From: the human T2T-CHM13v2.0 reference genome, Homo sapiens | Length of the DNA stretch: 64,000 nt | Assembly: GCF_009914755.1 (NCBI RefSeq) | Contig: NC_060926.1 | Reading direction: 5' to 3' (one strand) | Shown here: in pieces, positions 34,605-54,165 of the stretch | Layout: each line of letters begins with the position of its first letter | Numbering within the stretch: position 1 is the first letter of the stretch | The notes under the pieces: generated by a model | The model's database searches: none | What the model was told of the DNA's origin: nothing | What the model saw: the letters and a program-made list of their open reading frames with translations, nothing else | Made by a program: the position numbers and the translations under genes

Positions 34605-37128
34605 CTGCCAGATTTTGGTATCAAGATGATGTTGGCCTCATAGAATGAGTTGGGGAGGAGTTCCTCCTCCTCAATATTTTCAAATAGTTCCTGTAAAAAT
34701 GGTACCAGCTCTTCTTTGTATTTCTAGTAGAATATGACTGGGAATCCATCATGTTCTGGGCTTTTTTTGGTTGGTAGGTTATTTATTACTGATTCAATTT
34801 CGGAGCTTGTTATTGGTCTGTTTACAGCAAATCAATTTCTTCCTGGCTCAGTTGTGGGAGGGTGTATTTCTCCATGAATTTATCCATCTCTTTGAAGTTT
34901 TCTAGTTTGTATGCATAGAAGTGTTTGCAGTAGTTTCTGATGGCTGTTTCTATTTCTGTGGGGTCAGTGGTAACATTCCCTTTGTCATTTCTAATTGTGT
35001 TTCTTTCAATCATCCTCTGTATTAGTCTGCTAGCAGACTTTCTTATTAATATTTTCAAGAAACCTACCCGGAATTCATAGATCTTTTGAATTTCTTTTTT
35101 TCATGTCTCGGTTTCTTTCAGTTCAGCTCAGATTTTCAGTTATTTCTTGTCTTCCTCTAGCTTTGGGGTTTTGTCTTGCTTCTCTAGTTCTTTCAGTTGT
35201 GATGTTAGGTTATTAATTTGAGTTCTTCCTAACTTTTTGATGTGGGATTTAGTGCTATAAATTTCCCTCCTAACATTGTCTTAGCTGTGTCCAGAGGCTC
35301 TAGTATGTTGTAACTTTGTTCTCATTATTTTCAAAGAGCTTCTTGATTTCTGCCTTAATTTCATTATTTATTAAAAAGTCATTCAGGAGCATGTTGATTG
35401 ATTTCCATGTAATTGCATGATTTTCAGCAATTTTCTTAGTCTTCTATTTTTACTGCACTGTGATCTCAGTATGTATTTGGTATGATTTCAGTTGTTTTGC
35501 ATTTGCTGAGGATTGCTTTATGTCCAATTATGTGGTTGATTTTAGAGTATGTGGCATATGATGATGTGAGGAATGCATATTCTGTTGTTTTTGAGTGCAG
35601 AGTTCTGTAAAGGTCTATCAGATCCATTTGATCCAATGTTGAGTTCAGGTCCTGAATATCTTTGTTCATTTTTTTGCCTCAATCATCTGTCTAATACTGT
35701 CATTGGAGTGTGGAAATCTCCCACTATTACTGTGAAACATACTTTGTAGGTCTCTAAGAACTTTACTTATGAATCTGGGTGCTCCTGCATTGGATGAATA
35801 TATATTTAGGATAGTTAGGTCTTCTCGTTGAATTGAAGCCTTTGCCATTATGTAATATCCTTCTTTGTCTTTTCTATTTTATTTTAAGTTCCAGGATACA
35901 TGTACAGGATGTGCAGGTTTGTTACATAGTTAAACATGTGCCATGGTGGTTTGCTGCACCTATCAACCTATCACCTAGGTATTAAGCCCCACGTGCATTA
36001 GCTATTTATCGTGATGCTCTCCTTCCCCCTACCTTCCCAACAGGCTCCGGTGTGTGTTCTGCCCCTCCCTGTGTCCATGTGTTCTCATTGTTCGGTTCCC
36101 ACTTATGAGAACATGTGGTGTTTGGTTTCCTGTTCCTGTGTTAATTAGCTGAAGTTTATGGCTTCCAGCTTCATCCATGTCCCTGCAAAAGACATGATCT
36201 CATTCCTTTTTATGGCTGCATAGTATTCCATGGTGTATATGTATCACATTTTCTTTATCCAGTCTATCATTGATGGACATTTGGGCTGATTCCATGTCTT
36301 TGCTATTGTGAATAGTGCTGCAATAAACATAAGTGTGCATGTATCTTTAAAACAGAATGATTTATATTTCTTTGGATATAAACCTAGTAATGGGATTGCT
36401 GGGTCAAATGGTATTTCTGCTTCTAGATCCTCCAGGAATTGCCACACTGTCTTCCACAATGGTTGAACTAGTTTACATTCCCACCAACAGTGTAAAAGTG
36501 TTCCTGTTTCTCCACAGCCTCTCTAGCATCTGTTGTTTCTTGACTTTTTAATAATTGCCATTCTGACTGGCATGAGATGGTATCTCATTGTGGTTTTGAT
36601 TTGCATTTCTCTAATAAACACTAGTGTTGAGCTTTTTTTTTCATATGTTTGTCGGACGCATAAATGTCTTCTTTTCAGAATGTCTGTTCGTGACCTTTGC
36701 CCATGTTTTGATGGGGTTGTTATTTTCTTGTAAATTTGTTTAAGTTCCTTGTAGATTCTGGATATTAGACCTTTGTCAGATTGGTAGATTGCAAAAATAT
36801 TCTCCCATTCTGTAGGTTGCTTGTTCACTCTGATGATAGTTTCTTTCCCTGTGCAGAAGTGCTTACGTTTAATTAGATCCCATTTATCAATTTTTGCTTT
36901 TGTTGCAATTGCTATTGATGATTTCATCGTAAAATCTTTGCTCATGCCTATGTCCTGAATGGAACTTCCTAGATTTTCTTCTAGGGTTTTTTACAGTTCG
37001 GGGTTTCACATTTAAGTTTTTAATCCATCTTGAGTTAATTTTTGCATAAGATGTAAGGATGAGGTCCAGTTTCAGTTTTCTGCATATGGCTAGTCAGTTT
37101 TCCCAGCACCATTTAAATAGGGAATCCT

Positions 37129-37659
<531 letters not shown>

Positions 37660-40600
37660 TCAGTCTCTTTTTTGGTTGCATATGAAACTTAAAGTAGTTT
37701 TTTTTTAATTATGTGAAGAATGTCAATGGTAGTTTGATGTGAATAGCACTGAATCTATAAATTACCTTGGGCAGTATGGCCATTTTCATGAGATTGATTC
37801 TTCCCACCCATGAGCATGGAATATTTTTCCATTTGTTTGTGTCCTCTCTTATTTCCTTGAGCAGTGGCTTGTAGTTCTCCTTGAAGAGGTTCTTCACACC
37901 CATCGTTAGCTGTATTCCTAGGTATTTTATTCTCTTTGTAACAATTGTGAATGGGAGTTCATTCATGATTTGGCTCTCTTGCCTATTGTTGGTGTATAGG
38001 AATTGAAGAATATTGTCTATTGCTGGTGTATAAGAATGCTTGTGATTTTTGCACATTGATTTTGTATCTTCAGACTTTGCTGAACTTGCTTATCAGCTTC
38101 AGGAGTTTTTGGGCTGTGACGATGTGGTTTTCTAGATATAGAATCACGTTTTCTGCAAACACAGACAATTTGATTTTATCTCTTGCTATTTGAACATGTT
38201 TTATTTCTTTCTTTTTTTTTGAAGGGTTTTTCATGTCTCTGTCTCCTTCAGTTCCACTTTGATCTTAGTCATTTTTTTTTTTCTCTTCTGCTAACTTTTG
38301 GATTTGTTTGCTCTTGCTTCTCTAGTTCTTTTAGTTGTGATGTTAGGGTGTCAATTTGAGATATGTCTAGCTTTATGATGTGGGCATTTAGTGCTATAAA
38401 TTTACCTCTTAACACTGCTTTAGTTGCCTCCCAGAGATTCTGGTACATTGTCTCTTTGTTCTCATTGGTTTCAAAGAGCTTCTTGATTTCTGCCTTAATT
38501 TTATTATTTACCCAGAAGTCACTCAGGAGCACGTTGTTCAATATCCATGTAGTTGTGTGGTTTTGAGTGAGTTTCTTAATCTTGAGTTCTAATTTGATTG
38601 CACTGTGGTCTGAGAGATTGTTATGATTTCAGTTATTTTGCATTTGCTGAGGAGTGTTTTAATTCTAATTTTGTGATCAATTTTAGAGTGTCATATGCCA
38701 CTAAGAATAATATATAGTCTGTTGTTTCGTGTTGGAGAGTTCTGTAGATATCTATGAGATTCACTTGATCCAGAGCTGTGTTCAAGTCCTTTCTGGTCAA
38801 TTTTCTGCCTAGATGATCCAATATTGACAATGGGGTGTTAATGTCTCCCACTATTGTTGTGTGGTAGCCTGAGTCTCTTTGTAGGTCTCTAAGAACTTGT
38901 TTTGTGAATCTGGGTTCTCCTGTATTGGGTGCATACATATTTAGGATAGTTAGCTCTTCTTGTTGAATTGATTCCTTTATCATTGTGATGTTCTTCTTTG
39001 TCTTTTTTTATCTTTGTTGATTCAAAGTCTGTTTTGTCAGAAACTAAGATTGCAACCCCTGCTTTTTTCTGCTTTCCATTTGCTTGGTAAATTTTCCTCC
39101 ATCGCTTTGAGCCTATGTGTGTCTTTGCACATGAGATAGGAACCCTGAATACAGCACACCTGAATCTTGACTCTTTATATCCAATTTGCTGGTCTGTGTC
39201 TTTTAATTGGTACATTTAGCCCATTGACACTTAAGGTTAATATGGTTATGTGTGAATTTGATCCTGTCACCATGATGCTTGCTGGTTATTTTGCTCACTA
39301 GTTGATGTAGTTTCTTCATAGTGTCATTGGTCTTTGTACTTCAGTACATTTTTGCAGTGGCTGGTACCAGTTTTTCCTTTCCATCTTTAGCACTTCCTTC
39401 AGGAGGTCTTGCAAGGCAGGCCTGGTGGTGATAAATTCCCTCAGCATTTGCTTGTCTGAAAAGGATTTCTCCTTCACTTATGAAGGTTAGTTTGGCCAGA
39501 TATGAAATTCTAGGTTAGAAATTCTTTTCTCTAAGAATGTTGACCATTGGACCCAACTGTCTCCTGGCTTGTGGGGTTTCTGCTGAGAGGCCCACTCTTA
39601 GTCAGATGGGCTTCCCGTTGTAGGTGACCTGCCCTTTGTCTCTGTCTGCCTTTAACATTTTTTCCTTCATTTTGATCTTGGAGAATCTGATGACTATGTG
39701 TCTTGAGGGTTGATCTTCTTGTGGAGTATCTTACTGGGGTTCTCTGGATTTCCTGAATTTGAATGTTGGCCTGTCTTGCTAGGTTGGGGAAGTTCTTCTG
39801 GATGATATCTTGAAGTGTGTTTTCCCAACGTGGCTCCATTCTCCTTGTCTCTTTCAGGTAGTCCAATCAGTCATAGGTTTGGTCTTTTACATAGTTCCAC
39901 AGTTCTTTGAGGTTTTGTTCATTCCTTTTCATTCTTTTTTCTCTAATCTTCTCTGCCTGCCTTATTTTGGCAAGACAGTCTTCAAGCTCTGATATTCTTT
40001 TTTCTGCTTGATCAATTCAGCTGTTGATACTTGTGTTTGCATCACAAAGTTCCCCTTATGTGCTTTACAGCTGGCTCTGGTCATTTATGTTCCTCTCTAA
40101 ACTGGTTATTCTAGTTAGCATCTTCTGTAATCTTTTAACATGGTTCTTAGCTTCTTTGCTGACAGAAGTAGGGTTCAGAAGGTGGGTAATAACAAATTTC
40201 ACAGAGCTAAATGAGCATGTTCTAACCCAATGCATTGATTTCTCCACCTCCCTTTCAGGGATGCCAGTGATTTGTAGAATTGGCCTCTATATATAACCCC
40301 ATACTTATTGGAGGTTTTCTTCCTTCCGTTTTATTCTTTTTTATTTTTGTCTGTCTTATTTTAGAGAACCAATCTTTAAGTTCTGGGATTCGTTCCAATA
40401 TGTTGGGTTAGAGCGTACTCCTTTAGCTCAGTGAAGTTTGCTACTACCCACCTTCTGAAGCCTACTTCTGTCAATTCATCCATCTCAACCTCCACCCAGG
40501 ACTGTGCCCTTGCTGTAGAGGTGTTGTGATCATTTGGAGTAAACAAGTCACTCTGGCCTTTTGAGTTGTTAGGGGTTTTTCATTCCTTTCTCATCTTCAT

Positions 40601-41354
40601 GAGTTTGTCTCATTTTGATCTTTGAGGCTGCTGACCTTTAGATGAGGTTTTCGTGGGGACTTTTTGGTTGATGTTGTTGTTGCTTTCTGTTTTTCTTTCG
40701 ACAGTCAGGTACCTCTTCTGTAGGGCTGCTGTGGTTTGCTGGGGATTCACTTCAAGCCCTATTTATCTGGGTCCCTCCCACACCTGAAGATGTCACCAGA
40801 GGGTGCTGGAGAACAGCAAAGATGGGACCCCACTCCTTCCTCTGGGATCTCTGTCCTTGAGGGGCACCCACCTGATGCCAGTAGAAATGCTCCTGTATAA
40901 GGTGTCTGGTGACCCACTGGGGTGTTTCACCCAGTTGAGGGGCACAGGATCCAGGACTTGCTTAATGAAGCACTTTGATTGTCCCTTTGGGAAGGGGGTA
41001 TGCTGTGCCGGGGAAAATCCCACTCATCTGGGCTGCCTGGAATCCTCAGAGTGAGCAGGGGGAAAGAACAAGTCTTCCGGTTTGTGGAGACAACAGCCAG
41101 CCACCCCTCCCACTAGGGACTCAGACCTAGAGAGATCAGAGTTCTCTCCCTAATTCCCTGGCTTGAGTTGCTGGAGTTCCTGCAGGGAGGCCCCACCCAG
41201 TGAGGAGGGATGGGTCAGGGTCAGCCTAAAGAGGCAGTCTGGCCATGATCTGCCACAGCCAGTATGCTGCGCTGTGGGGAATACCTCTTGGGACCAAGCC
41301 GTCCAGTCTTCCTGGCATCAGCAAAGGAAAAACAGCAGCCTGGATCTGTAGAAA

Positions 41355-41640
41355 TGGCTGCCGCCCTTCCTCCCCAGGAGTTCAGTGTCTTAGGCAGCTA
41401 GCAGCCACAGTGATGGCTGCTGTCCCTTCTTAGGGAGCTCAGTTTCCTCAGGCAGCAGGCAGCTGCAGTGATGATGACTGCCCCTCTCTTGGGAAGCTCA
41501 GTTGTCTTAGGCAGCCAGCAACCACAGTGATGATTGCTCCCCCTCCCCCAGGGAACTCAGAGGGTTTAGGCAGCAGGCAGCCACAGTGATGATGACCACC
41601 CCTCCCCAACTTGGGAACTCGGTAGTTTTAGGCAGACTCC
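41355..41640. repeat. ~60-bp tandem repeat (about 5 copies) in the L1 B 5'UTR
   Basis: Recurrent taggcagc..gcagccacagtgatgatg..ccct...gggaactcag. Confidence 0.8.
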
Positions 41641-44339
41641 AGCTGAGTGGCTGTTGAGAATCTGCATGGCTCTGTGGTTGGCACCCAAGGCCCTCGTGGT
41701 GTGGTCTCATGAGTGGGATCTTCTGATCTGTGGATTGCAAAGATCCATGGAAAAAGCAGTTTCCCAGGCTGGGTAGCATGCTCACTCACTGCCTCCCTTG
41801 GCTGGCTGAGGGTGACGGCTCCCCTTGCCCCATGTGGCTCCCAGGTGGGCCAATCCACCAGCCCATCTTTCCTTGTTCTCTATGGGTCACGGCAACCACC
41901 TAGTCAGTCCTGATCATAGAACCTGGATATGTCAGTTGCTGGTGCAGGATTTGCACACTCTTTTAGTTCTTCTCAGTGGGAGCCTCAAACTGCAGCTGCT
42001 TCTAGTCGGCTATCTTGCCCCTGCCCCCTTGTCCTTTTGAAAAATTATTGTTCATTTGAAATCTGTTTTGTCTGAAATTAGGATTGCAACCTCTGCTTTT
42101 TTTCTGTTTTCTATTTGTCTGGTAGATTTTTCTCCATCCTTTTAGTTTGAGACGATGAGTGTCATTATGTGTGAGATGGGTCTCTTGAAGACGACATACC
42201 ATTGGGTCTCACTTTTTTTTTTTTTAAATCTAGCTTGCCACTCTGTGCCTTTTAAGTGGGGCATTTGCCCATTTACATTCAAGGCTAGTATCGATTTGTG
42301 TAGATTTGATCTTGTCATTGTGCTGTTGGCTGGTTATTATGTTGGCTTTTTTGTGTGGTTGCTTTATAGTGTCACCGGTCTGTGTGTTTAAGTATGTTTT
42401 TGCATTAGCGTGTAGTGGTCTTTCCTTTCTATATTTAGTCCTCCTTTCTAAAATCTCTTGTAAGGCAGATGTGGTGGTAATGAATTACCTCAGAATTTGC
42501 TTGTCTGTAAATGATCTCATTTCTCCTTCATTTAGAAAGCTTAGTTTAGCTGTATATGAAATTCTTGGTTGAAGATTTTCTTTAATAATGTTAAATATAG
42601 TCCCCCAATCCCTTCTGGCTTGTAGGATTTCAGCTGAGAGATCTGCTGTTAGCCTAATGGGGTTCCCTTTGTAGATGGCCTGCCCTTTCTCTCTGGCTGC
42701 CTTTAACATATTTTCCCTCATTTCGACCTTGGAAAACCTGATGTTTATGTGTCTTGAGGATGGTCTTGTGTAGAATCTTGTAGGAGTTCTTTGTATTTCC
42801 TGAATTTGACTGTTGGCCTTTCTAGCAAGGTTAGGGAAGCTTTCAAAGATGATATCCTGAACTACGTTTTCCAAGTTGTTTGATTTCTCCACCTCCCTTT
42901 CAGAGATGCCAGTGATTTGTAGAATTGGCCTCTTTATATAATCCCATCCTCCTTGAAGGTTTTGTTCATTCTTTTTTATTTTTGTCCATCTTATTTTAGA
43001 GAACCAATCTTCAAGTTCTGAGATTCGTTCCTCAGGTTTTTTTTTCTGCTGTTAATACTTGTGATTGCATTGTGGAATTCTTGTATTGTGTTCTTCGGCG
43101 CTTTCAGATCGGTTAGGTTCTTTTTTATTATACCAGCTACTTTATCCTTCAGCTCCTGTAACACTTTACTGTTATTCTTATTTTCCTTGGATTGGGTTTT
43201 GCCATTCTCCTGAGTCTTGATGATTTTTTTTCCTATCCATATTCTGAATTATATTTATGTAATTCCAGACAGTTCATCCAGGTTAAGAACTCTTGTTGGA
43301 GAACTGGTGTGGTTGTTAGAAGGACATATGACACAGAGGCCATTTGAGTTACTGGAGTTCTTGCATTGGTTTCTTCTCATTTCCACCTATGGGTTTTCCT
43401 TTAATTGCAGTGTAGATTGAGTACAGTCCGTAGACTTATTTTCGGATGTTTTCACCAGGCTGAGGCTTTGTGCAGGGTCTTTATTTGAAGCTGACTTCTC
43501 ATTTCTGGTTTCAGAGGGGAGTATATTAGTAAGGTATTTTTGATGCTGAAGCTTTGGGATGTGATCCAGTAGGTGGCACTTGGGCTTACTGGTCAGTTGG
43601 TAGACTCTTGCTTGGTCATGTGGCTCCCCTATGTTTCCTTACAGTTGCAGCCATGTTCCCTCTCAATGATCTGAAAATGTGCTTCTCTCCCCCTTGAGTG
43701 CTGGCTGTAGGTCATGGCTTGGCACTCCTAGGCTGCCCACTGCAGCTCTGGGGCAATCTCAGTGTTTATATTTCTTTCCTAACTTTGAGGCAGAAGAGGA
43801 AGGGACATTAGTAGTGGTTGTAGCCAAGGGTCTTTTGTTTGTCTCCTCAGAGTTCCACCACCCCTGGAGAATACAGCAACTGTTTACTGCAATCAGCAAT
43901 CAGGATGGAGAATTCGTGCTGTGGGGGCCAATCCAGGGGTTCCCTGTCATGAGCAGTGGGGAGTGTGTAGAACCCATGAGAGATGGGCTTTGGTCAATTA
44001 AAGCTTGTTGAAGGTGTAGATAAGGGTGTTAGCTCCTTCATCAGTCTGAGGGTAGCAAGGACAGTTCCACTGCAGAAGCAGTGGCAGAGAGGCTTTCAGT
44101 TGCCCCTGGAGGCTCTCTCCAGGGAGTGGCTGAGTTGCTACTGGCTCAACAGTTCTGGTAGGGGGGGTTAGGTAGAGGTCCAGGCCTGCAAGACTTGCCT
44201 AGTGAGAAGATATAGGAATGGGAACCCAGGTAACAGTCTGGCCACTTTTCCATAGGGCTGCTGCAGTATGCCCAGGGCCCGCTCCAGTCTCTAGTAGCCT
44301 CAGATTTTCCAGTACCTGGAGTTATCATCAGTGAAGCCT

Positions 44340-45210
44340 GTGAAACAGCAAAGATGGCAGCCTACCGCTCCCTTTGGAAGCTTTGCCCTAGGGAGGTATG
44401 AATGAACTTGTTGCTGGCCCAAACACACCTGTAGGAGGTGGCTGGAGACCCCAGTTTGGAGGTTTTGCCCAGTGAGGAGGAATGGCATTGGGAAAGTGCT
44501 TAAAAAAGCAGTCTGGCCTCATTTTTATAGAGCAGCTGTGCTATGCTGAGGGTCCACATCACCCCCTGGTCTCCTTGGACACTCCAAAGACTGAAGGTTG
44601 AAGTGGCTAAGTTGCAAAAACAGCAAAGATGGTGGCCTGCCCCTCCATCAGGGAGCTCCAGCCCAGAAAAAATTGAAATCACTGTCAGCAGGAGAACACC
44701 AGTGGGGGTGGTTGGAGGCCCCAGTTGGGAAGTCCCAAACAGTGAGGAGGAATGAATCCGGGACCTACTTAAAGAAGCAGTCTGGCTATGCTTTTGTACA
44801 GCAGCTGTGCTGTGCTGGGGGGCCATATCCGCCCTAAGTCAGCTGGGACTCCTTAAAGCCCAAAGGCTGGAATGGCTAAGTTGCCAAAACATCAAATATG
44901 GCGGCCCACGCCTCCCTCAGGGCACTCCATCTCAGGGAGAATTCAAATCTCTGTCAGCCTGAGAATACCAGAGTGGGTAGCTAGAGGCCCTGGTTGGGAG
45001 GTCCTGCCCAGTGAGGAGGAATGGGATTGGGGACCTTCTTAAAGCAGTAGTCCGGCCATATTTTGGTAGAGTAGCACTGTGCTGTGCTAATGGATCCCTC
45101 TGTCCCTGGTCCGCTGAGACTCTCCAAATCCCGAAGGCTGGAGCAGCTAAGTTGCCCAAACAGCAAAGATGGTGGCCTACCCCTTCTCTCAGGAGCTCTG
45201 TCTCAGGGAG
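44340..45210 (-). repeat. ~270-bp monomer repeats (about 3 copies) in the L1 A 5'UTR
   Basis: cagcaaagatgg (or a variant) at about 44346, 44621, 44891 and 45161. Confidence 0.85.
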
Positions 45211-46082
45211 GCTCAACACTGTTGCTGGTGGCTGGCTGGAATTCCAAGCCAGTGGCTCTTATCCTGTGAGGTGCTGTGGAAGTGGGGCCTGCAGGCTGTT
45301 GCTGCTCAGCTCCCTGAATTCAGCCTCTTCCCTAGGGATATGTATGAGGGTCTCACCTCCCACTTTGCCACAGTTGCAGCTACTTTTGCAGGAAAGCCCA
45401 GGTACCTAAGGCTCCCAGGTCTCCATGTGTGCCTGAGTGGCTGCTGTGCCAAGATTCCACGTAGCTCTGTCAGACTGAAGGCCCTGGTAAAGTGGGTTCA
45501 TGAGAACTCTCGACCCAAGGATTGCAAAGATCCATGGAAAAAGCATGGGTTTCCAGGGTCACACATTCACTCACTGCTTCCCTGGGTGAGAGAGCTCCCC
45601 CTGGCTCTGTGGTACTCCCAGGTGGGCTGTCGTTTTGCCTTTCTTTTCTTCATTCTCCCTGGGTCAAGTTGTTTCCTTGGTTAGTCCCAATGTGAGTACC
45701 TGGATGTTTCAGTTGAAGGTGCAGTATTGACTCTCCCCTTGTGTTCCTCTCTGTGAGAGCCAAACACACTAGCTGCTTCAACTCGGCCACCTTGGCCAGC
45801 CCACTGCCCCCTCACTGCTATATTTTTACATATAACATTTACAACTCTATAAAGTACTTCATTGTACTCATTTTACAGGCGAAGATAGTTTAGACACACA
45901 AAGACTGAATAAGATCTAAGTCCTTTCCTTGTAAGATGCAAAATCTGGAATTGACAATGTACATAACTGCTACGTGTCTCAAACCTAAGATGTAATTAGG
46001 CATTTCTAAAGCTCACACTTTTTAAATGTTTAAATATTTTGTTAGAGTTTTAAAGAATGATTTAGTTAAAAAATACGATTAT

Positions 46083-46790
46083 GGGGGTGTGTGGCCAAGA
46101 TGACTGACTAGAAGAAGCTAGGGTGCACGGCTCTCATGGAGAGGAATGAAAAGGGCAAGTCAATACAGCACCTTCAACTGAAACAACCAGGTACTCGCAT
46201 TACTCACATAATCAAGGAAACAACTCCAGCCAGCCACCAGCAACAGTGTTTTACCTACCTGAGACTGACTTCCTAGGGGACAGGGCAGGCCACCATCTTT
46301 GTTGTTTGGGTAACTTAGCCATTCCAGCCTGTTGGGCTTTTGAGAACCCAAACCAACTGAGGGCAGAAGGGATCCCCCACGCAGCACAGCTGCTCTACCA
46401 AAATGTGGCCAGACTGCCTCTTTAAGTGGATCCCCAATCCATTCCTCCTCGCTGGGCGGGACCTCCCAACTGGGGCCTGCAGCTACTCCTGCAGGTGCTC
46501 TCAGGCTGACGGAGATTTGAATTCTCCCTGGGATGAGTTCCCTGGGGGAGAAGGGGGCCGCCATCTTTGCTGTTTGGGTGACTCAGTTATTCCAGTCTGT
46601 GGGCTTTGGAGAGTCCAAAGTGACTAGGGTGGAGGGGATCCCCAGAACAGCACAACTGCTCTATCAAATCATGGCAAGATTCTTTAAGTAGATCCCCGAT
46701 CCGTTCCTCACTGGGTGAGACCTCCCAAGTGGGGCTTCCACCCCTTAGTTCTAGAGCTGACAGAGATTTACATTCTCCCTTGGATAGAGT
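46083..46790 (+). mobile_element. 5' end of a second old L1 (element C), head-to-head with element A; 5'UTR only, with ~270-bp monomers
   Basis: ggccaagatgactgactagaagaagct...cagcaccttcaactgaaacaaccaggtactc is the reverse-complement homolog of 45690-45800; monomers at 46290-46785. Confidence 0.85.
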
Positions 46791-46989
46791 TGTCAAGGTC
46801 CTGCCAATTAAGAAGAAATGGGTCAGGAACCTGCTAAAAGAATCTGCCTGACCAAGATTTTGTAGAGTAGCTGTGTTGTGCTGGGAGATCCCTTCTGCCC
46901 CGGTAGGTATGGATTCCACAAAACCCTCAGGCTGGAGTGGCTAAGTTGCACAAACAGCAAAGATGGCAGCTCATCTTTGGCCATTTCAT

Positions 46990-49900
46990 CCCAAGAATTC
47001 AAATATCTTTGGGCCCGAGAACACCAGCAGGAGTGACTGGAGGTCCCAGTGCGGTGATCCCTCACCAGGCAGGACTTTGAGACCGCCATGCCAGGGATAA
47101 TTGAAATCTCTGGCAGCCTGAGGACACTGGAGGAGGGGGTGGGGTGGTGGCTGGGGGCCCGAGTTGAAAGGAACTTCACTGGGCAGGAACTGGAGACCTC
47201 CATGCCAGGGAGAACTCGAATCTCTGTCAGCATGAGAACACAGGTAGGGGTGGCCGGAGGGCCCAGTTAGGAGAACCCTCACTGGGTGGGACCTCAAGAA
47301 CTCCATGCTAGGGAAAATTCAAATCTCTGTCAGCCCCAGGACACTGGCGGGGGTGGCTGGAGGCCCCATATGGGAGGTCCCTCACTGGGTCAGACACCGA
47401 GACCTCCGTGCCAGAGAGAATTCACATCTCTGTCAGCCCCAGAACACTACCGGGGTGGTTGCAGGCCCTAGTTGGGAGGTCCTCACTGGGCGGGACCCCG
47501 AGACCTCCATGCCAGGGAGAATTCAAATCTCTGTCAGCCCCAGAACACTGGCAGGGGTGGCCAGAGACCCCAGTTGGGAGGTCGCTCACTGGGCCAGACC
47601 CCGAGACCTCCATGCCAGGGAGAATTCAAATCTCTGTCAGTCCCAGAATAAAGGCGGGGGTGGCCGGAGGCCCCGGTTGGGAGGTCCCTCACTGGGCGAT
47701 ACCCCAAGACCTCCATGCCAGGGAGAACTCAAATCTCTGTCAGCCTGGGAACACCAGTGGGGGTGGCTGGACACCGCAGCTAAAAGGACCCTCATTGGGT
47801 GGGACCTTGTGAATTACATGCCAGGGAGAATTCAAATCTCTGTCAGCCTGCCTTGTGAATTACATGCCAGGGAGAATTCAAATCTCTCTCAGCATGAGAA
47901 CACCAGTGGGGTTGGCTGGAGGCCCCGCTTGGGAGGTCCCTCACTGGGCAGGACCTCAAGACCTCCACACTAGGGAGAATTCAAATCTCTGTCAGCCCCA
48001 GAACACTGGCGGGGGTGGCTGCAGGCCCCCGTTGGGAGGTCCCTCACTGGGCAGGACCCCGATACCTCGATGCCAGGGAGAATTGAAATCTCTGTCAGCC
48101 CCAGAATATTGGCGGGGGTGGGGGGAGTTGGCTGGAGGCCTGAGTTGGAAGGACCCTCACTGGGCAGGAACCGGAGACCTCCATGCCAGGAAGAATTCAA
48201 ATCTCTTTCAGCATGAGAACACAGGTGTGAGTGGCCAGAGGTCTCAGTTAGGAGAACCCTAACTGGGTGGGACCTCACAAACTCCATGCCTGGGAGAATT
48301 CAAATCTCTGTCAGCCCCAGAACACCAGCGAGGGTGGCTGCAGGCCCCGGTTGGGGGGGTTCCTCACTGGGCAAGACCCCGAGACCTCCATGCCAGGGAG
48401 AACTCAAATCACTGTCAGCCTGAGAACACCAGTGGGATTGGCTGGAGACCCCAGCTAAAAGGACACTCATTGGGCGGGACCTTGAGAACTACGTGCCAGG
48501 GAGAATTCAGATCTCTGTCAGCCCGAGAACACCGGTGGGGGTGGCTGGAGGCCACGGTTGAGAGGTCCCTCACTGGGCAGGACCTCAAGACCTCCATGCC
48601 AGGGAGAATTCAAATTTCTGTCAGCCCCAAAACACTGGCAGGGGTGGCTGGAGGCCGAAGTCCTTCACTGGGCCAGACGCTGAGACCTCCATACCAGGGA
48701 GAATTCAAATCTCTGTCATCCCAAGAACACCGGTGGGGGTGGCTGGAGACCCAATTGGGAGGTCACTCACTTGGCAGGACCTGAAGACCTCCATGCCAGG
48801 GAGAATTCAAATCTCTGTCAGCCCCAGAACACTGGCGGGGTTAGCTGGAGGCCCCAGTTGGGAGGTCCCTCACTGGGCCAGACCCTGAGACCTCCATTCC
48901 AGGGAGAATTCAAACCTCTGTCAGCCCCAGAACACTGGCGAGGGTGGCTGGAAGCCACGGTAGGGAGGTCCCTCACTAAGCAGGACCTAAAGACCTCCAT
49001 GCCAGGGAGAATTCAAATCTCTGTCAGCCCCAGAACACTGGTGGGGTTAGCTGGAGGCCCCAGTTGGGAGGTCCCTCACTGGGCCAGACCCTGAGACCTC
49101 CATTCCAGGGAGAATTCAAATCTCTGTCAGCCCCAGAACACTGGCAGGGGTGGCTGCAGGCCCCAGTTGGGAGGTCCCTCACTGGGCGGGACCCCAAGGC
49201 CGCCATGCCAGGGAGAACTCCAACCTCTGTCAGCCCCAGAACACCAGTGGGGTTGGCTGGAGACCCCAGCTAAAAGGACCCTCATTGGGTAGGACCTCAA
49301 GAACTAAGTGCCAGGGAGAATTCGAATCTCTGTCAGCCTGAGAACACCAGGGGTGGGTGGCTGGAGGCCTGAATTGAAAAGACCCACAGCGGACAGGAAG
49401 TGGAGACCTCCATGTCAGGAAGAGTTCAAATCTCTGTCAGCATGAGAACACAGGTGAGGGTGGCCGGAGGCCCCAGTTAGGAGAACCCTTACTGGGCGGG
49501 ACTTCAAGAACCAAGAACTGCATACCTGGGAGAATTCAAATCTCTGTCAGCCCCAGAACACTGGCGGGGGTGGCTGGAGGCCCCAGTTGGGAGATCCCTC
49601 ACTGGGCAGGACCTAAAGACCTCCATGCCAGGGAGAACTCAAATCACTGTCAGCCTGAGAACACCGGTGGGATTGGCTGGAGACCCCAGCTAAAAGGACC
49701 CTCATTGGGCGGGACTTTGAGAACTAGGTGCCAGGGAGAATTCAGATATCTGTCAGCCCAAGAACACCGGTGGGGGTGGCTGGAGGCCACGGTTGAGAGG
49801 TCCCTCACTGGGCAGGACCTCAAGACCTCCATGCCAGGGAGAATTCAAATCTCTGTCAGCCCCAAAACACTGGCAGGGGTGGCTGGATGCCGAGGTCCTT

Positions 49901-50693
49901 CACTGGGCCAGACCCTGAGACATCCATACCAGGGAGAATTCAAATCTCTGTCAGCCCAAGAACACCGGCGGGGGTGGCTGGAGGCCCGATTGGGAGGTCA
50001 CTCACTTGGCAGGACTTAAAGACCTCCATGCCAGGGAGAATTCGAATCTCTGTCAGTCCCAGAACACTGACAGGGGTGGTTGCAGGCCCCAGTTGGGAGG
50101 TCCCTCACTGGGTGGGACCTGGAGACCTCCATTCCAGGGAGAATTCAAATCTCTGTCAGCCCCAGAACACTGGTGGGGGTGGCTGGAGGCCCCAGTTGGG
50201 AGGCCCCTCACTGGGCCACACCCCAAGACCTCCATGCCAGAGAGAATTCAAATCTCTGTCAGCCCCAGAACACTGGAGGGGGTGGCTGGAGGCCCCAGTT
50301 GGGAGGTCCCTCACTGGGCAAGATCCTGAGACCTCCATGCCAGGGAGAACTCAAATCTCTGTCAGCCTGAGAACACCGGAGGGGGTGGCTGGGGACCCCA
50401 GGTAAAAGGACCCTCATTGGGCAGGACCTTGAGAACTACGTGCCAGGGAGAATTCAGATCTCTGTCAGCCCTGGAACACCAGCGGGGGTGGCTGGAGGCC
50501 ATGGTTGGGAGGTCCCTCACTGGGCCAGACCCTGAGGCCTTCATGGCAGGGAGAATTCAAATCTCTGTCAGCCCCAGAACACTGGCAGGGGTTGCTGGAG
50601 GCCTCGGTTGGGAGGTCCCTCTCTTGGCAGGACCTCAAGACCTCCATGCCAGGGAGAATCCAAATCTGTCATCCTGAGAACACTGGCGGGGTG
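46990..50693 (+). repeat. 103-bp GC-rich satellite, left array (about 37 units)
   Basis: Consensus CCAGGGAGAATTCAAATCTCTGTCAGCCCCAGAACACTGGCGGGGGTGGCTGGAGGCCCCAGTTGGGAGGTCCCTCACTGGGCAGGACCTCAAGACCTCCATG. ORF starts repeat every 103 bp (50053/50156, 50362/50465). Confidence 0.95.
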
Positions 50694-50774
50694 GGCATAG
50701 CAAGGTGCTCTACCAAAATGTGGCCATACTGGGTCTTTAAGAAGGTCTGTGATCCATTCCTCCTCACTGGGCGG

Positions 50775-51768
50775 GACCTCCCAACCAGGGCCTCCAGCCA
50801 CCCCCACCAGTGTTCTCGGGCTGGCAGAGATTTGAATTCTCCCTGGCATGGAGGTCTGGAGGTCCTGCCCAGTGAGGCACCTCCCAACCGGGGCCTCCAG
50901 CCACCCCCACCAGTGTTCTGGGGCTGACAGAGATTTGAATTCTCCCTGGCATGGAGTTCTGGAGGTCCTGCCCAGTGAGGCACCTCCCAACCGGGGCCTC
51001 CAGCCACCCCCGCCAGCGTTCTGGGGCTGACAGAGATTTGAATTCTCCCCAGCATGGAGGTCTCGAGGTCCCGCCCAGTGAGGGACCTCCCAACAGGGGC
51101 CTCCAGCCACCCCCGCTGGTGTTCTCAGGCTGACAGAGATTTGAATTCTCTTTGGGATGGAGGTCTTGAGGTTCCATTCAGCGAGGGACCTCCCAATAGG
51201 GGCCTTGAGACACTCCCGCCAGTGTTCTGGGGCTGACAGAGATTTGAATTCTCTCTGGCATGGAGGTCTTGGGGTCTGGCGCAGTGAGGGACCTCCCAAC
51301 TAGGGCCTCCAGCCACCCCTGCCAGTGTTCTGTGGCTGACAGAGGTTTGAATTCCCCCTGGTATGGAGGTCTTGAGGTCCTGCTTAGTGAGGGACCTCCC
51401 TACCGTGGCTTCCAGCCACCCTCGCCAGTGTTCTGGGGCTGACAGATATTTGAATTATCTTTGGGATGCGGTTCTTGGGGTCCCTTCCAGTGAGGGACCT
51501 CCCAACCGGGGCCTCCAGCCACCCCCACCAGTGTTCTGGGGCTGACAGAGATTTGAATTCTCTCTGGCATGGAGGTCTTGGGGTCTGGCCCAGTGGGGGA
51601 CCTCCCAACTGGGGCCTCCAGCCACCCCCACCAGTGTTCTGGGGCTGACAGAGATTTGAGTTCTCCCTGGCATGGAGGCCTGGAGGTCCAGCCCAATGAG
51701 GGTCCTTTCAGCTGGGGCCTCCAGCCACCCACACCGGTGTTCTCAGGCTGACAGAGATTTGAATTCCT
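50775..51768 (-). repeat. 103-bp satellite, right array in inverted orientation (about 10 units)
   Basis: gagatttgaatt every 103 bp from about 50828 to 51755; ORF starts at 50848, 50951, 51054, 51260, 51363, 51466, 51569 and 51672. Confidence 0.95.
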
Positions 51769-52352
51769 GGAATGAGTTCCCACGCGCAAGAGCAAGGAGC
51801 CATCTTTGCTGTTTGTGCAACTTAGTCGTTACAGCCCACGGGCTCTGGAGAATCCATACCTACCGGGGCAGAAGGGATATATCATCAGCACAGCACAGCT
51901 ACTCTACAAAATCTTAGAAGGCAGATTCTTTTACCAGGTTCCTGATCCATTCCTCCTTACTGGGCAGGACCTCGACAACTCCTTCCCGGGGAGAATGTAA
52001 ATCTCTGTCAGCTCGAGAACACCGGTGGGGTGGTGGAGGCCCCAGGTGGGAGGTCCCACCCAGAGAGGAGGAAAGAATCAGGGATCTGTGTAAAGAATCT
52101 GCCTGGCCACTATTTGGTAGAGCAGTTGTGATGTGCTGGGGGATCCCTTCCACCCCCAGTCATTTGGGACTCTCCAAAGCTGGCCCCATCCTCTCCCCCA
52201 GGCCCCAGTTGGAAGGACTCCCACTGGGCAGGAACTCCAGAACTCCCTCCCAGGGAGAATTCAAATTCCTCTCAGCCCCAGACACCAGTGGGGTAGCTGG
52301 AGGCCCTGGTTGGGAGGAACAGATTGGGAATCCCCTTAAAGATTCTGTCTGG

Positions 52353-52633
52353 GGCCGGCCACGGTGGCTCATGCCTGTAATCCCCATACTTCGGGAGGCC
52401 CAGCAGGGTGGATCACTTGAGGTCAGGAGTTCCAGACCAGCCTGGCCAACATGGTGAAACCCCATCTCTACTAAAAATAAAAAAATTCGCTGTGCGTGGT
52501 GATGGGCACCTGTAGTCCTAGCTACTTGGGAGGCTGAGGCAGAAGAACTGCTTGAACCAGGGCTGTGATGGGTGCTGTAAGCCGAGATCATGCCACTGCA
52601 CTCCAGCCTGGGTGACAGAGCAAGACTCCTTCT

Positions 52634-52667
<34 letters not shown>
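52353..52667 (+). mobile_element. Alu (AluS-like) with a 33-nt poly-A, inserted in the right arm of the palindrome
   Basis: Full dimer flanked on both sides by L1-monomer sequence. Confidence 0.93.
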
Positions 52668-52672
<5 letters not shown>

Positions 52673-53053
52673 TGGGCACATGTTGGGAGAGCAGCTGTGC
52701 TATTCTAGGGATCCCTTCTACCCCACCAGTTTGCACTGTCCAAAGCCCACAGGCTGGAATGGCTGTGTCACCCAAACAGCAAAGATGGCGGCCAGCTCCT
52801 CCCCTGGGAAACTCATCCCAGGGAGCTCCAGCATCCTTGGCACAAGCTGGCAAGTATTGGCTGAAATGACAGGTGCCCTGGAGAAATTTGAAAGGGTTAT
52901 CCACATCCGGCTGCTGATTATTTTCACAATTTTCCTGAGATGTCGTTATCATTCTTTGACTCTCCTTTCTATAGTCAGACATTTGGCTCTCAGAGGTGAC
53001 TTTCTGGCTGAAGAATGTGGATTCGTCACTGTCTTGTGCTCAATGTAGAGGGG

Positions 53054-53235
53054 GCTCTTAATTCCAGAAATGTCCATATCTGATGAAAGAAAGCGAAGAA
53101 TGAAACAAAAAGAGATATGTACCGTATTCATAAGTAGATTCAATGCTCTTAATTCCAGAAATGTCCATATCTGATGAAAGAAAGCGAAGAATGAAACAAA
53201 AAGAGATATGTACCGTATTCATAAGTAGATTCAAT
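53054..53235. repeat. Perfect 91-bp tandem duplication
   Basis: 53054-53144 equals 53145-53235, with GCT microhomology at the junctions. Confidence 0.95.
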
Positions 53236-54165
53236 GCTATTAAGATGTCAGTTCTTTCCAATGTATAGATTCAATGCAATTCTACTCTAAATGAAAATGT
53301 TTATATGGAGAGGCAAAAGACCTTGAATAGCTAACACCATATTGAAGGAGAAGAACAAACTTGGAGGACAGACACTACTCAATTTCAAGACTTACCCTAA
53401 AGCTACAGTAATGGAGACAGTGTGGTATTAGTGAAAGAACAAACGGATAAAATGAGATAGAGAGTTCACAAATAGAAACACATTAATACATTCGATTAAT
53501 TTTTGACAAAAAAGTAAAGGCATTATGATGATGAAACAGTTTTTTCAGGAAGGGCTGCTGGAATACCTGGATATCCACATGCAAAAAAAAAATAAATTGC
53601 AGACCTTACACCCCCACCAAAATTAACTCAAAATGGATCAGCAACATAAATATACAAAAAACTATAAAATTTATAGAAGATAATATAGAAGGAAATACAG
53701 ATTATCTTGGGTTTAATGATGACCTTTAGAAAAAACACCAAAGTTGAAGTCAATAGAAGAAAGAATTGACAAGCTGGACTTGATGAAAATGTAACATTTT
53801 TACACCATTAAAGACACTGAAAGAAAAGAGAAACCACAGATGGAAAAAAATTTGCCAAAACGTATCTGATTAAGAACTATTATTCAAAACATATTAGTAT
53901 TCTTAAAGCTGAGCAGTAAAAGACATGAGCTAAAGACCTTAACAAGTACCTCACCAAGTAAATTATACAAATGGAAAATAAGCATATGTAATGAGGCTAC
54001 ACATAATATTTCCTCAGAGAAATGCAACCATGAGATGCCACTGCACACGTATTAGAATAACCAAAATCTAGAACCACTGACAACATCAAACGCTGGCAAG
54101 GATGTGGAGCAAGAGGAAACTTCATTCATTGCTTGTGGGAATGCAAAATGGTGCAGTCACTTCTT
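53192..54165 (+). mobile_element. Old L1M (L1MC-like) ORF2 3' fragment
   Basis: aagatgtcagttctt...aaagctacagtaat..agacagtgtggtatt...ggatgtggagcaa..ggaa..tcattcattgct.gtgggaatgcaaaatgg. Confidence 0.8.

What the first reader, a model, noticed from the sequence alone, without database searches (positions are those of the whole stretch)
46990..51768. A 103-bp satellite born from an L1 5'UTR monomer through a strand-switch chimera
Seen: unit positions ~1-72 match the L1 monomer next door (44933-45003, cagggagaattcaaatctctgtcagcc...ggttgggaggtc). The next ~19 nt (cctcactgggcaggacctc) are the reverse complement of the overlapping and adjacent parent sequence (gaggtcctgcccagtgagg), followed by a short linker. 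Each unit therefore holds two orientation switches and a GGAGGTC...GACCTCC hairpin. The parent monomers (44.3-45.2 and 46.3-46.8 kb), a prototype junction (about 46770-46805 and 51955-52000) and the amplified product (about 47 units) all sit side by side, giving a complete fossil record of satellite birth from a retrotransposon promoter. I do not recognise the unit as a named satellite, but it may be listed among T2T-era arrays.
Basis: partly seen in the sequence, partly recalled or inferred. Interest (0 to 1): 0.85.

Follow-up and report, generated by a model that had tools for sequence, protein, structure and literature searches.

The report
L1-promoter-derived 103-bp repeat array
A 4.8-kb array of 47 copies of a 103-base unit was built long ago from a piece of an old L1 retrotransposon's promoter region with a short flipped segment in every copy; it is a neat but apparently functionless example of how jumping-gene DNA turns into tandem repeats.

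Summary
Window 46978-51783 carries 47 units of about 103 bp: 37 in one orientation and 10 inverted. Each unit is about 84 nt of the ~269-bp internal repeat ("monomer") of an old L1 5'UTR, then a 19-nt piece from the opposite strand of the same monomer, then 2-5 unexplained nt. The 19-mer matches the opposite strand with 0-3 edits in 7 of 7 L1 copies, against 5-6 edits on the same strand.

The same junction, still flanked by full monomer sequence, sits at about 46790 and 51975. Junction-spanning queries hit only three paralogous chr2 loci in this genome. Dispersed L1 copies match only the 84-nt part. So it is neither part of the L1 consensus nor a dispersed satellite.

The array is old: mean pairwise unit identity is 78%. 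It predates a paralogue with K2P distance 0.036 and has a 12-unit higher-order duplication.

Best reading: fold-back template switching inside one L1 5'UTR, then unequal exchange, with no evidence of function. TE-derived tandem repeats are common (PMC3389668), so this is a clear new member of a known kind. Its Dfam, Repbase or T2T name could not be checked.

The parts
44231..45796 (-). L1-A: an ordinary neighbouring L1 5'UTR, with a unique head and about 3 monomers of about 269 bp (TRF 44425-45184). It continues into L1 body down to about 42047. It is a comparison copy, not the direct parent.
   Evidence: its identity to L1-B is 77-79%, no higher than to dispersed copies
46094..46789 (+). L1-B: the L1 5'UTR that hosts the array. 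The head is at 46094-46226, with an internal deletion of reference positions 168-584. Sense-strand monomers run 46231-46789.
   Evidence: (alignment to the dispersed copy L014 in sense orientation)
46770..46810 (.). J1: inversion junction. A sense monomer ends near monomer position 14 and joins an antisense monomer starting at about position 91. Full monomer sequence lies on both sides (the 'prototype').
   Evidence: (87% match to J3 on the opposite strand)
46811..46977 (+). Antisense monomer piece (monomer positions 106-269) that bridges J1 to the first unit.
46978..50691 (+). 37 units of about 103 bp, antisense to L1. The units p13-p24 and p25-p36 form a 12-unit higher-order duplication.
50685..50700 (.). 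J2: a second strand switch. A + unit truncated at unit position 53 joins a monomer in the opposite orientation at about position 176-185.
   Evidence: the same arrangement is present in the 96.49-Mb paralogue
50695..50772 (-). Natural monomer continuation (positions about 176-98) flanking the inverted block.
   Evidence: row 14-176, 50856-50695, minus
50773..51783 (-). 10 units of 103 bp in the opposite orientation (sense to L1).
51799..51962 (-). Monomer piece (positions 263-101) between the inverted block and J3.
51955..52000 (.). J3: the same junction as J1 in reverse complement (the second 'prototype').
   Evidence: J1rc and J3 are sisters in the tree at 99/96
51999..52180 (+). Antisense monomer (positions 37-220) forming the outer right arm. 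It mirrors 46603-46790.
   Evidence: arms 46603-48043 vs 52180-50773, 77.5%; non-array part 81.4%
52190..52320 (+). J4: a solitary unit-like copy of the chimeric junction, embedded in monomer sequence.
52683..52833 (-). The last L1 monomer remnant of the right arm. An Alu insertion at about 52340-52670 separates it from J4.

Best explanation
This is a locus-specific tandem array derived from a transposable element. An old L1 landed with its 5'UTR head at 46094 on the + strand. Like other copies of its family, its 5'UTR has a unique head followed by several ~269-bp monomers.

**Inferred steps.**
1. During replication or break repair, a fold-back template switch inside the monomers joined sense monomer near position 3-14 to antisense monomer at about position 91. 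This made junction J, which survives with full flanks as J1 and J3.
2. A second fold-back about one monomer further on re-copied J in reverse. That placed two copies of the 84-nt segment A either side of the 19-nt inverted piece B', giving a ready-made 103-bp direct repeat.
3. Unequal exchange or slippage amplified this repeat, later in blocks of 12 units.
4. A further fold-back (J2, about 50690) copied array, junction and monomers in reverse, giving the 10-unit inverted block and the right arm.
5. The structure then decayed and was carried along by two later segmental duplications.

**Shown versus inferred.** Shown here: the anatomy, the strand of origin of each piece, the restriction to three chr2 loci, and the relative ages. 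Inferred: the replication-based mechanism and the order of steps 1-4. I see no evidence of function and treat the array as a neutral fossil.
For: **Parent is an L1 5'UTR.** Six dispersed copies (L013-L018) carry the tandem ~270-bp monomers. Five of them also align from the start of the unique head; L016 aligns only in part. In L013, Pfam L1 ORF1 domains lie downstream on the same strand (Tnp_22_trimer 4.9e-13, Transposase_22, Tnp_22_dsRBD 6.2e-34).

**Unit composition.** Units match monomer positions 14-97. The 19-mer has 0-3 edits on the opposite strand in 7 of 7 copies, against 5-6 on the same strand.

**One shared junction.** J1 (reverse complement), J3, J4 and the units align through the junction. 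J1 and J3 then continue into monomer sequence where the units restart.

**Natural flanks.** The flanks of both blocks are natural monomer continuations (46811-46973 = positions 106-269; 50695-50856 = positions 176-14; 51799-51962 = positions 263-101).

**Palindrome.** The arms 46603-48043 and 52180-50773 are colinear in inverted orientation at 77.5%. Their non-array parts are 81.4% identical.

**Genome distribution.**
- A 70-nt query across both unit junctions gave 97 hits. Of these, 96 lie in three chr2 loci and 1 on chrX covers only query positions 36-70 (22 of 22 candidates scored).
- The J3 query gave 115 hits. The 18 hits outside the three loci never cross the junction (40 of 41 candidates scored).
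- Junction 31-mers within 6 edits: 38 (Ja) and 34 (Jb) in the array region, 0 in the rest of the window, and 0 (Ja) and 1 (Jb) across six dispersed L1 loci.

**Tree.** Natural monomers separate from J plus units on one branch (94/65; 96% of bootstrap trees). J1rc and J3 are sisters (99/96) and lie at the base of the unit cluster.

**Relative ages (K2P).** Dispersed L1 heads 0.27; units 0.245; arms 0.216; 8-unit block 0.093; the 96.49-Mb paralogue 0.036. The mirror copy is 99.93% identical. The paralogue has the same architecture, with 32 + units, J2 and 7 - units.

**Growth by blocks.** p13-p24 vs p25-p36 are 87.1% identical with 9 gap columns. Template switching and inverted tandem duplication are recognised human rearrangement classes (PMC5829575, passages read).
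Against: - The order of the fold-backs is not resolved. The basal placement of J1, J3 and J4 has weak support (forks at 90/66 and 89/76, drawn open; 103 columns for 57 rows).
- Part of the split between natural monomers and units in that tree comes from the non-homologous B' columns.
- Microhomology at the switch points cannot be shown. The natural sequence upstream of A resembles B' at only about 13 of 19 positions. That equals the best chance same-strand hits (5-6 edits).
- The inverted-block units are 90-94% identical to their best + partners, except m04 (88%), m05 (85%) and m10 (76%). The non-array parts of the arms are only 81% identical. So either gene conversion acted between the blocks or the simple 'one inverted duplication' account is incomplete.
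- The solitary J4 unit has no counterpart in the left arm.
- L1-B and the right arm are not colinear outside 46603/52180.
- Absence of function is assumed, not tested.
Confidence: 0.72

Rival explanations
1. One short template switch with an upstream return made A-B'-A directly. In this 'four-point' event, the polymerase leaves at monomer position ~14, copies positions 91-110 from the other strand, and returns at position 97. J1 and J3 then arose later, when the 20-nt B piece was extended into inverted monomer sequence by further rearrangement.
For: Both unit blocks are embedded in natural monomer sequence on both sides, as a local duplicating switch predicts. Only 2-5 nt are unexplained at the junction. 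The basal position of J1 and J3 in the tree is weakly supported.
Against: J1 and J3 share the junction yet carry more than 160 bp of colinear monomer sequence on each side. That is easier to explain if they are ancestral, because the unit is a sub-interval of them. Deriving them from a unit needs recombination through only about 20 nt of homology. The two L1 5'UTR arms facing each other are explained directly by a long fold-back.
Confidence: 0.2
2. The 103-mer is a simple internal-deletion derivative of the 269-bp monomer, with no strand switch. On this view the apparent reverse-complement match is chance similarity to the natural monomer boundary.
For: The natural sequence just upstream of segment A loosely resembles B' (6 edits of 19, hit at 44911-44927). 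A chr6 L1 copy shows that direct short monomers can arise (L016).
Against: B' matches the opposite strand with 0-3 edits in 7 of 7 L1 copies, against 5-6 edits at best on the same strand. J1 and J3 continue for more than 160 bp in inverted monomer sequence.
Confidence: 0.02
3. The unit is part of a standard L1 subfamily 5'UTR, or is an already catalogued satellite present at many unrelated loci.
For: No repeat library (Dfam or Repbase) could be searched here. The genome search scores only the best candidates (40 of 214 scored), so its counts are lower bounds.
Against: All junction-spanning hits lie in three paralogous chr2 loci (40 of 41 candidates scored; 22 of 22). Six dispersed L1 copies lack the Ja junction (0 of 6) and one has a single borderline Jb hit. 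The hub's list of the 20 longest masked stretches (shortest 283 bp) has none inside 44-52.8 kb, so NCBI did not mask the array as one block.
Confidence: 0.04
4. The array is a maintained functional element. It could be a reiterated promoter or enhancer fragment, a hairpin-forming structure, or a small-RNA source downstream of the ANKRD36-family genes.
For: It derives from an L1 5'UTR (promoter region). It lies about 1.1 kb beyond the annotated ANKRD36B terminal exon (hub table). All three paralogues keep it next to a copy of that exon.
Against: Units are on average 13% from consensus, range 5-32%. Copy number differs between paralogues: 47 vs 39. CpG observed/expected is 0.19. The inverted repeat is intact in 7 of 44 units. 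Folding is not unusual, with 5 of 6 z-scores no lower than -1.37. Retention in segmental duplications needs no selection.
Confidence: 0.04

Closest known systems
TE-derived minisatellites and satellites of the human genome (Ahmed & Liang 2012, PMC3389668; passages read)
   Same: The tandem repeat unit is a piece of a transposable element. It started locally and grew by local duplication. That paper notes that L1PA and LTR12 contribute many such arrays through their internal tandem repeats.
   Different: That survey required at least 95% identity between units, so an array this decayed (78%) would have been excluded. Its units are plain TE fragments. Here every unit carries a 19-nt inverted piece, and the junction's precursor survives beside the array.
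Monomeric L1 5'UTRs (mouse L1 monomers; PMC9022269, introduction passages read)
   Same: Tandem repeats inside an L1 5'UTR. The 269-bp repeats here are of that kind and travel with every copy examined.
   Different: The 103-mer is not carried by retrotransposed copies. It exists only at three paralogous chr2 loci, so it is a genomic rearrangement product and not an L1 feature.
L1-derived satellites in other mammals (common cetacean satellite, PROsat of Phodopus; listed in Table 1 of PMC6947457)
   Same: Conversion of L1 sequence into satellite DNA.
   Different: Those are, as I recall, abundant chromosomal satellites; the table I read gives no copy numbers. This is 4.8 kb (47 units) per locus, with about 133 units in the genome (47 + 47 + 39). 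I read only the table, not the primary papers.
Template-switch, fold-back and inverted tandem duplication rearrangements (MMBIR/FoSTeS; Frith & Khan 2018, PMC5829575, passages read)
   Same: Local inverted duplications and junctions between opposite strands, attributed to polymerase template switching.
   Different: Those are single events. Here the product of the switch became the unit of a tandem array.

Membership tests
L1 (LINE-1) 5'UTR internal tandem repeat ('monomer'), for the 269-bp parent | The repeat lies between the L1 5' terminus and ORF1, on the same strand, in independent dispersed copies. | tested here: met
   Six dispersed loci show tandem ~270-bp repeats; five align from the head start and L016 only in part. 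Pfam L1 ORF1 domains lie downstream on the same strand in L013.
L1 (LINE-1) 5'UTR internal tandem repeat, for the 103-bp unit itself | The unit is carried by retrotransposed copies at unrelated loci. | tested here: not met
   Junction-spanning matches occur only at three paralogous chr2 loci. The Ja junction is in 0 of 6 dispersed copies.
TE-derived tandem repeat (minisatellite or small satellite) | A head-to-tail array whose unit is homologous to a TE segment. | tested here: met
   47 units with period 103. 84 nt of each unit align to monomer positions 14-97.
Classical satellite DNA | Long arrays (tens of kb to Mb), usually at many chromosomal sites and homogenised. | tested here: not met
   The array is 4.8 kb at three paralogous loci. 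Mean pairwise unit identity is 78%.
Named human satellite or composite repeat in Dfam, Repbase or the T2T annotation | The consensus matches a library entry. | not testable with these tools
   No repeat library is available. The main text of the T2T repeat preprint has no occurrence of ANKRD36, chr2 or 103. Its supplements are closed.
Fold-back or template-switch rearrangement | A junction joins opposite strands of the same local sequence, with inverted arms. | tested here: met
   J1, J2, J3 and the inverted colinear arms.
Fold-back or template-switch rearrangement | Microhomology at the switch points. | tested here: inconclusive
   The candidate similarity is 13 of 19 positions, no better than chance same-strand hits. 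The junctions are too decayed to judge.

The most novel reading that the evidence does not exclude
The locus preserves each intermediate of a one-step route from transposon to tandem repeat. A fold-back template switch that re-copies an earlier inversion junction automatically yields two direct copies of a segment separated by a short inverted spacer. That is a ready seed for unequal exchange. If this route is general, many TE-derived arrays with no obvious initiating direct repeat should carry an inverted spacer in each unit. Ahmed & Liang state that known mechanisms explain only 6% of such arrays (abstract read). A genome-wide scan could test this.
Probability: 0.3. Interest if true: 0.5.

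Novelty: new member of a known kind. Interest (0 to 1): 0.35.

Why it matters
How long-unit tandem repeats get started is poorly understood. PMC3389668 states that proposed mechanisms explain only 6% of TE-derived arrays.

This locus is a clean worked example. The parent repeat, the precursor junction and the amplified chimeric unit lie within 8 kb. Three paralogues give internal time points.

It suggests a concrete initiating mechanism that can be searched for: a template switch creating direct repeats around an inverted spacer.

It also has a practical side. Repeat annotation would probably shred this array into about 84-bp L1 5'-end fragments; that is my inference. It sits in a segmental-duplication and palindrome region near the ANKRD36 genes, where mapping is difficult. 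There is no sign that it affects gene function.

Tried and rejected
- **Whole-genome file.** I used genome searches and fetched stretches instead.
- **Naming the L1 subfamily.** Not possible without Dfam or Repbase. Khan et al. 2006 (PMC1356131) is not held. The Repbase review lists only family names. PMC9022269 gives general background. I therefore call it an 'old L1'. Any L1PB or L1PA16-like label would be recall, not a result.
- **Literature on this array.** Four searches returned nothing about it: L1PB/UTR/tandem/monomer; LINE-1/primates/UTR/L1PB/L1MA/tandem; ANKRD36/tandem repeat/LINE-1; ANKRD36B/VNTR. The T2T repeat preprint's main text does not mention it.
- **Hairpin as a notable structure.** Rejected.
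- **Direct-deletion origin.** Rejected.
- **The 181-nt chr6 hit that seemed to span a unit boundary.** It is an independent direct short monomer with no inverted piece.
- **L1-A as a local duplicate or parent of L1-B.** Not supported: identity is 77-79%, the same range as to dispersed copies.
- **One-to-one pairing of the inverted-block units with + units.** No clear diagonal; the units are too similar to the consensus to order.
- **Absolute dating.** Not attempted beyond relative K2P values, because calibration would rest on recalled rates.
Full report

Yes. Tandem Repeats Finder reports a 103-bp period at 47146-47848 and 47863-50667 (6.8 and 27.2 copies, 78-80% matches). It reports the reverse-complement consensus at 50773-51766 (9.7 copies, 85%). 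It also finds a 269-bp period at 44425-45184 (2.8 copies).

Phasing the array by BLAST with one unit gives 47 units. There are 37 on the + strand (46978-50691) and 10 on the - strand (50773-51783). Of the 47, 34 are exactly 103 bp and 34 contain GAATTC.

**2. What is the parent?**

A BLAST map with the 269-bp repeat from 44640-44908 shows that each unit matches positions 14-97 of that repeat.

The 269-bp repeat is a normal part of an old L1 family's 5'UTR. I fetched six dispersed copies (chrX, 18, 5, 6, 3, 6). All carry tandem ~270-bp repeats. Five align from the start of a unique head of about 550 bp; L016 aligns only in part. In the chrX copy, open stretches downstream on the same strand carry the L1 ORF1 domains: Tnp_22_trimer, Transposase_22 and Tnp_22_dsRBD, with E-values from 4.9e-13 to 6.2e-34.

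Relative to L1, the + units are antisense. I could not name the subfamily, because no Dfam or Repbase was available and Khan et al. 2006 is not held.

**3. Is each unit a strand-switch chimera?**

Yes. The 19 nt after the 84-nt segment A have the consensus printed. They match the opposite strand of the monomer with 0, 0, 0, 0, 1, 2 and 3 edits in seven of seven L1 copies (six dispersed copies plus the neighbouring one). The best match anywhere on the same strand needs 5-6 edits, which is the chance level for a 19-mer in 1.1-1.9 kb.

This rejects the idea that the unit is a plain deletion derivative. In 41 of 44 full-length units the piece is within 4 edits of its consensus. After allowing for homology of 'CTCCAT' with the natural monomer start, only 2-5 nt at the junction remain unexplained.

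**4. The prototypes and the larger structure.**

The junction B'-linker-A recurs outside the array in three places:
- at about 46790 (J1, reverse orientation);
- at about 51975 (J3);
- at 52200-52260 (J4, a solitary unit).

In an alignment, J1rc, J3, J4 and the units agree through the junction. Upstream of it, J1 and J3 continue in inverted monomer sequence, whereas units and J4 restart with the end of A. J1 and J3 keep more than 160 bp of monomer on each side. The unit is therefore a 103-bp sub-interval of the J region, which is what 'prototype' should mean.

The whole region is an imperfect palindrome, in this order:
- L1 head at 46094-46226 on +;
- sense monomers to 46789;
- J1;
- antisense monomer 46811-46973;
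- 37 antisense units;
- a further strand switch J2 at about 50690;
- sense monomer piece;
- 10 sense units;
- sense monomer 51799-51962;
- J3;
- antisense monomers to 52833, interrupted by J4 and an Alu.

The arms 46603-48043 and 52180-50773 are colinear in inverted orientation at 77.5%. Their non-array parts are 81.4% identical.

That copy runs on into L1 body. It is no closer to the host L1 (77-79%) than dispersed copies are (72-85%).

**5. Is it locus-specific?**

- *Three-unit query.* Multi-unit matches occur only at chr2 97.945-97.950 Mb (this window), 97.771-97.777 Mb and 96.494-96.499 Mb. Elsewhere only stretches of about 84 bp match. One 181-nt chr6 hit was the exception (40 of 214 candidates scored, so this is a lower bound). 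That hit is an independent direct short monomer with no inverted piece.
- *J3 query (111 nt).* It gave 115 hits. The 18 outside the three loci stop at the junction from one side or the other.
- *Unit-junction query (70 nt across both junctions).* It gave 97 hits: 96 in the three loci and one on chrX covering only positions 36-70 (all 22 candidates scored).
- *Junction 31-mers within 6 edits.* These occur 38 and 34 times in the array region, 0 times in the rest of the window, and 0 and 1 times in six dispersed L1 loci.

The 97.77-Mb copy is an inverted duplicate, 99.93% identical over 9,980 bp. The 96.49-Mb copy is about 94% identical in the flanks by BLAST, or 96.5% without gaps. It has the same architecture with 32 + units, J2 and 7 - units. 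All three loci include a copy of the sequence annotated here as the ANKRD36B terminal exon (and the hub table).

**6. Age and growth.**

Mean pairwise unit identity is 78%. Units are 4.9-32% from their consensus (mean 13.2%), and the edge units are the most diverged.

K2P distances give a relative order:

| Comparison | K2P |
|---|---|
| Dispersed L1 heads | 0.27 |
| Units | 0.245 |
| Arms, non-array part | 0.216 |
| 8-unit block | 0.093 |
| 96.49-Mb paralogue | 0.036 |

The mirror copy is 99.93% identical, which corresponds to a difference of about 0.0007.

So junction formation, first amplification and the inverted duplication all happened early in the life of this L1 insertion. A 12-unit higher-order duplication came later: p13-p24 vs p25-p36 are 87.1% identical with 9 gap columns, and p15-18 vs p27-30 are 93-97% identical. 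The segmental duplications came later still.

In a tree, natural monomers separate from J plus units on one branch (94/65; 96% of bootstrap trees). J1rc and J3 are sisters (99/96) and sit at the base of the units. The basal forks are weak, at 90/66 and 89/76. The inverted-block units are interspersed among the + units.

**7. Mechanism.**

I favour serial fold-back template switching.
- A first fold-back in the monomer array creates J and the two facing L1 arms.
- A second fold-back, one monomer further on, re-copies J in reverse. This automatically gives A-B'-linker-A, that is 1.8 units of a 103-bp direct repeat.
- Unequal exchange then amplifies the repeat.
- J2 is a later fold-back that made the inverted block.

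The anatomy is shown. The replication-based mechanism and the order of events are inferred.

The main rival is a single short switch with an upstream return that makes A-B'-A directly. It fits the natural flanks of both blocks equally well, but it must derive J1 and J3 secondarily through only about 20 nt of homology.

Three points argue against my simple account:
- most inverted-block units are closer to + units (85-94% for 9 of 10; m10 76%) than the arms are to each other;
- J4 has no left-arm counterpart;
- microhomology cannot be demonstrated.

**8. Function.**

None is indicated.
- GC content is 58.9% and CpG observed/expected is 0.19.
- The inverted repeat is intact in 7 of 44 units.
- Single-strand folding of six units gave z-scores of -0.12, +0.22, -1.37, -1.13, -0.22 and -2.51.
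- Copy number differs between paralogues.

**9. Known or new?**

TE-derived tandem repeats are common. They make up 23% of human minisatellites and satellites, with L1PA and LTR12 prominent because of their internal repeats. Known mechanisms explain only 6% of them (PMC3389668, abstract and passages). L1-derived satellites are listed for cetaceans and Phodopus (PMC6947457, Table 1). Template switching and inverted tandem duplication are recognised rearrangement classes (PMC5829575, passages).

I found nothing in print on this array. The searches were made, plus the main text of the T2T repeat preprint.

The hub's list of the 20 longest masked stretches has none in 44-52.8 kb. The array was therefore not masked as one block.

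**Verdict.** This is a well-documented new member of a known kind, with an unusually complete set of intermediates. It is of moderate interest to people who study repeat origins and of little wider consequence.

Noticed in passing
window 44021-54000 (and probably the whole window): A 99.93% identical inverted copy lies at chr2:97,770,022-97,780,000, about 176 kb away. The symmetry point falls about 37 kb left of the window start. The hub's gene table shows mirrored IGKV orphon pairs around the same point. This suggests a very large near-perfect palindrome.
   Followed up: partly
window 53054-53243: A 91-bp tandem duplication (2.1 copies, 98% matches) begins inside the annotated ANKRD36B terminal exon (52887-53079).
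   Followed up: no
L016 (chr6:63,013,031-63,013,340): An unrelated L1 copy has an independent, directly oriented short monomer (about 136-bp spacing) with no inverted piece. So monomer shortening recurs by simpler routes.
   Followed up: yes
window 45797-46093: Two L1 5' heads of the same family lie head to head about 300 bp apart: L1-A on - ending at 45796 and L1-B on + starting at 46094. Their identity is 77-79%, no closer than to dispersed copies. It is unclear whether these are two insertions or a very old inverted duplication.
   Followed up: partly
window 40445-42026: A more diverged L1 5' head-like stretch on the - strand (64-69% to the reference copy) abuts the end of L1-A. It appears to continue into ORF-bearing L1 sequence at 36179-38161.
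   Followed up: no
window 48176-50638: The array has a 12-unit higher-order structure. Blocks p13-p24 and p25-p36 are 87.1% identical with only 9 gap columns. Recurring unit types appear in the same order, visible in the listing.
   Followed up: yes
window 52340-52670: An Alu with a 33-A tail (row 52635-52667) is inserted into the outer monomer of the right arm.
   Followed up: no
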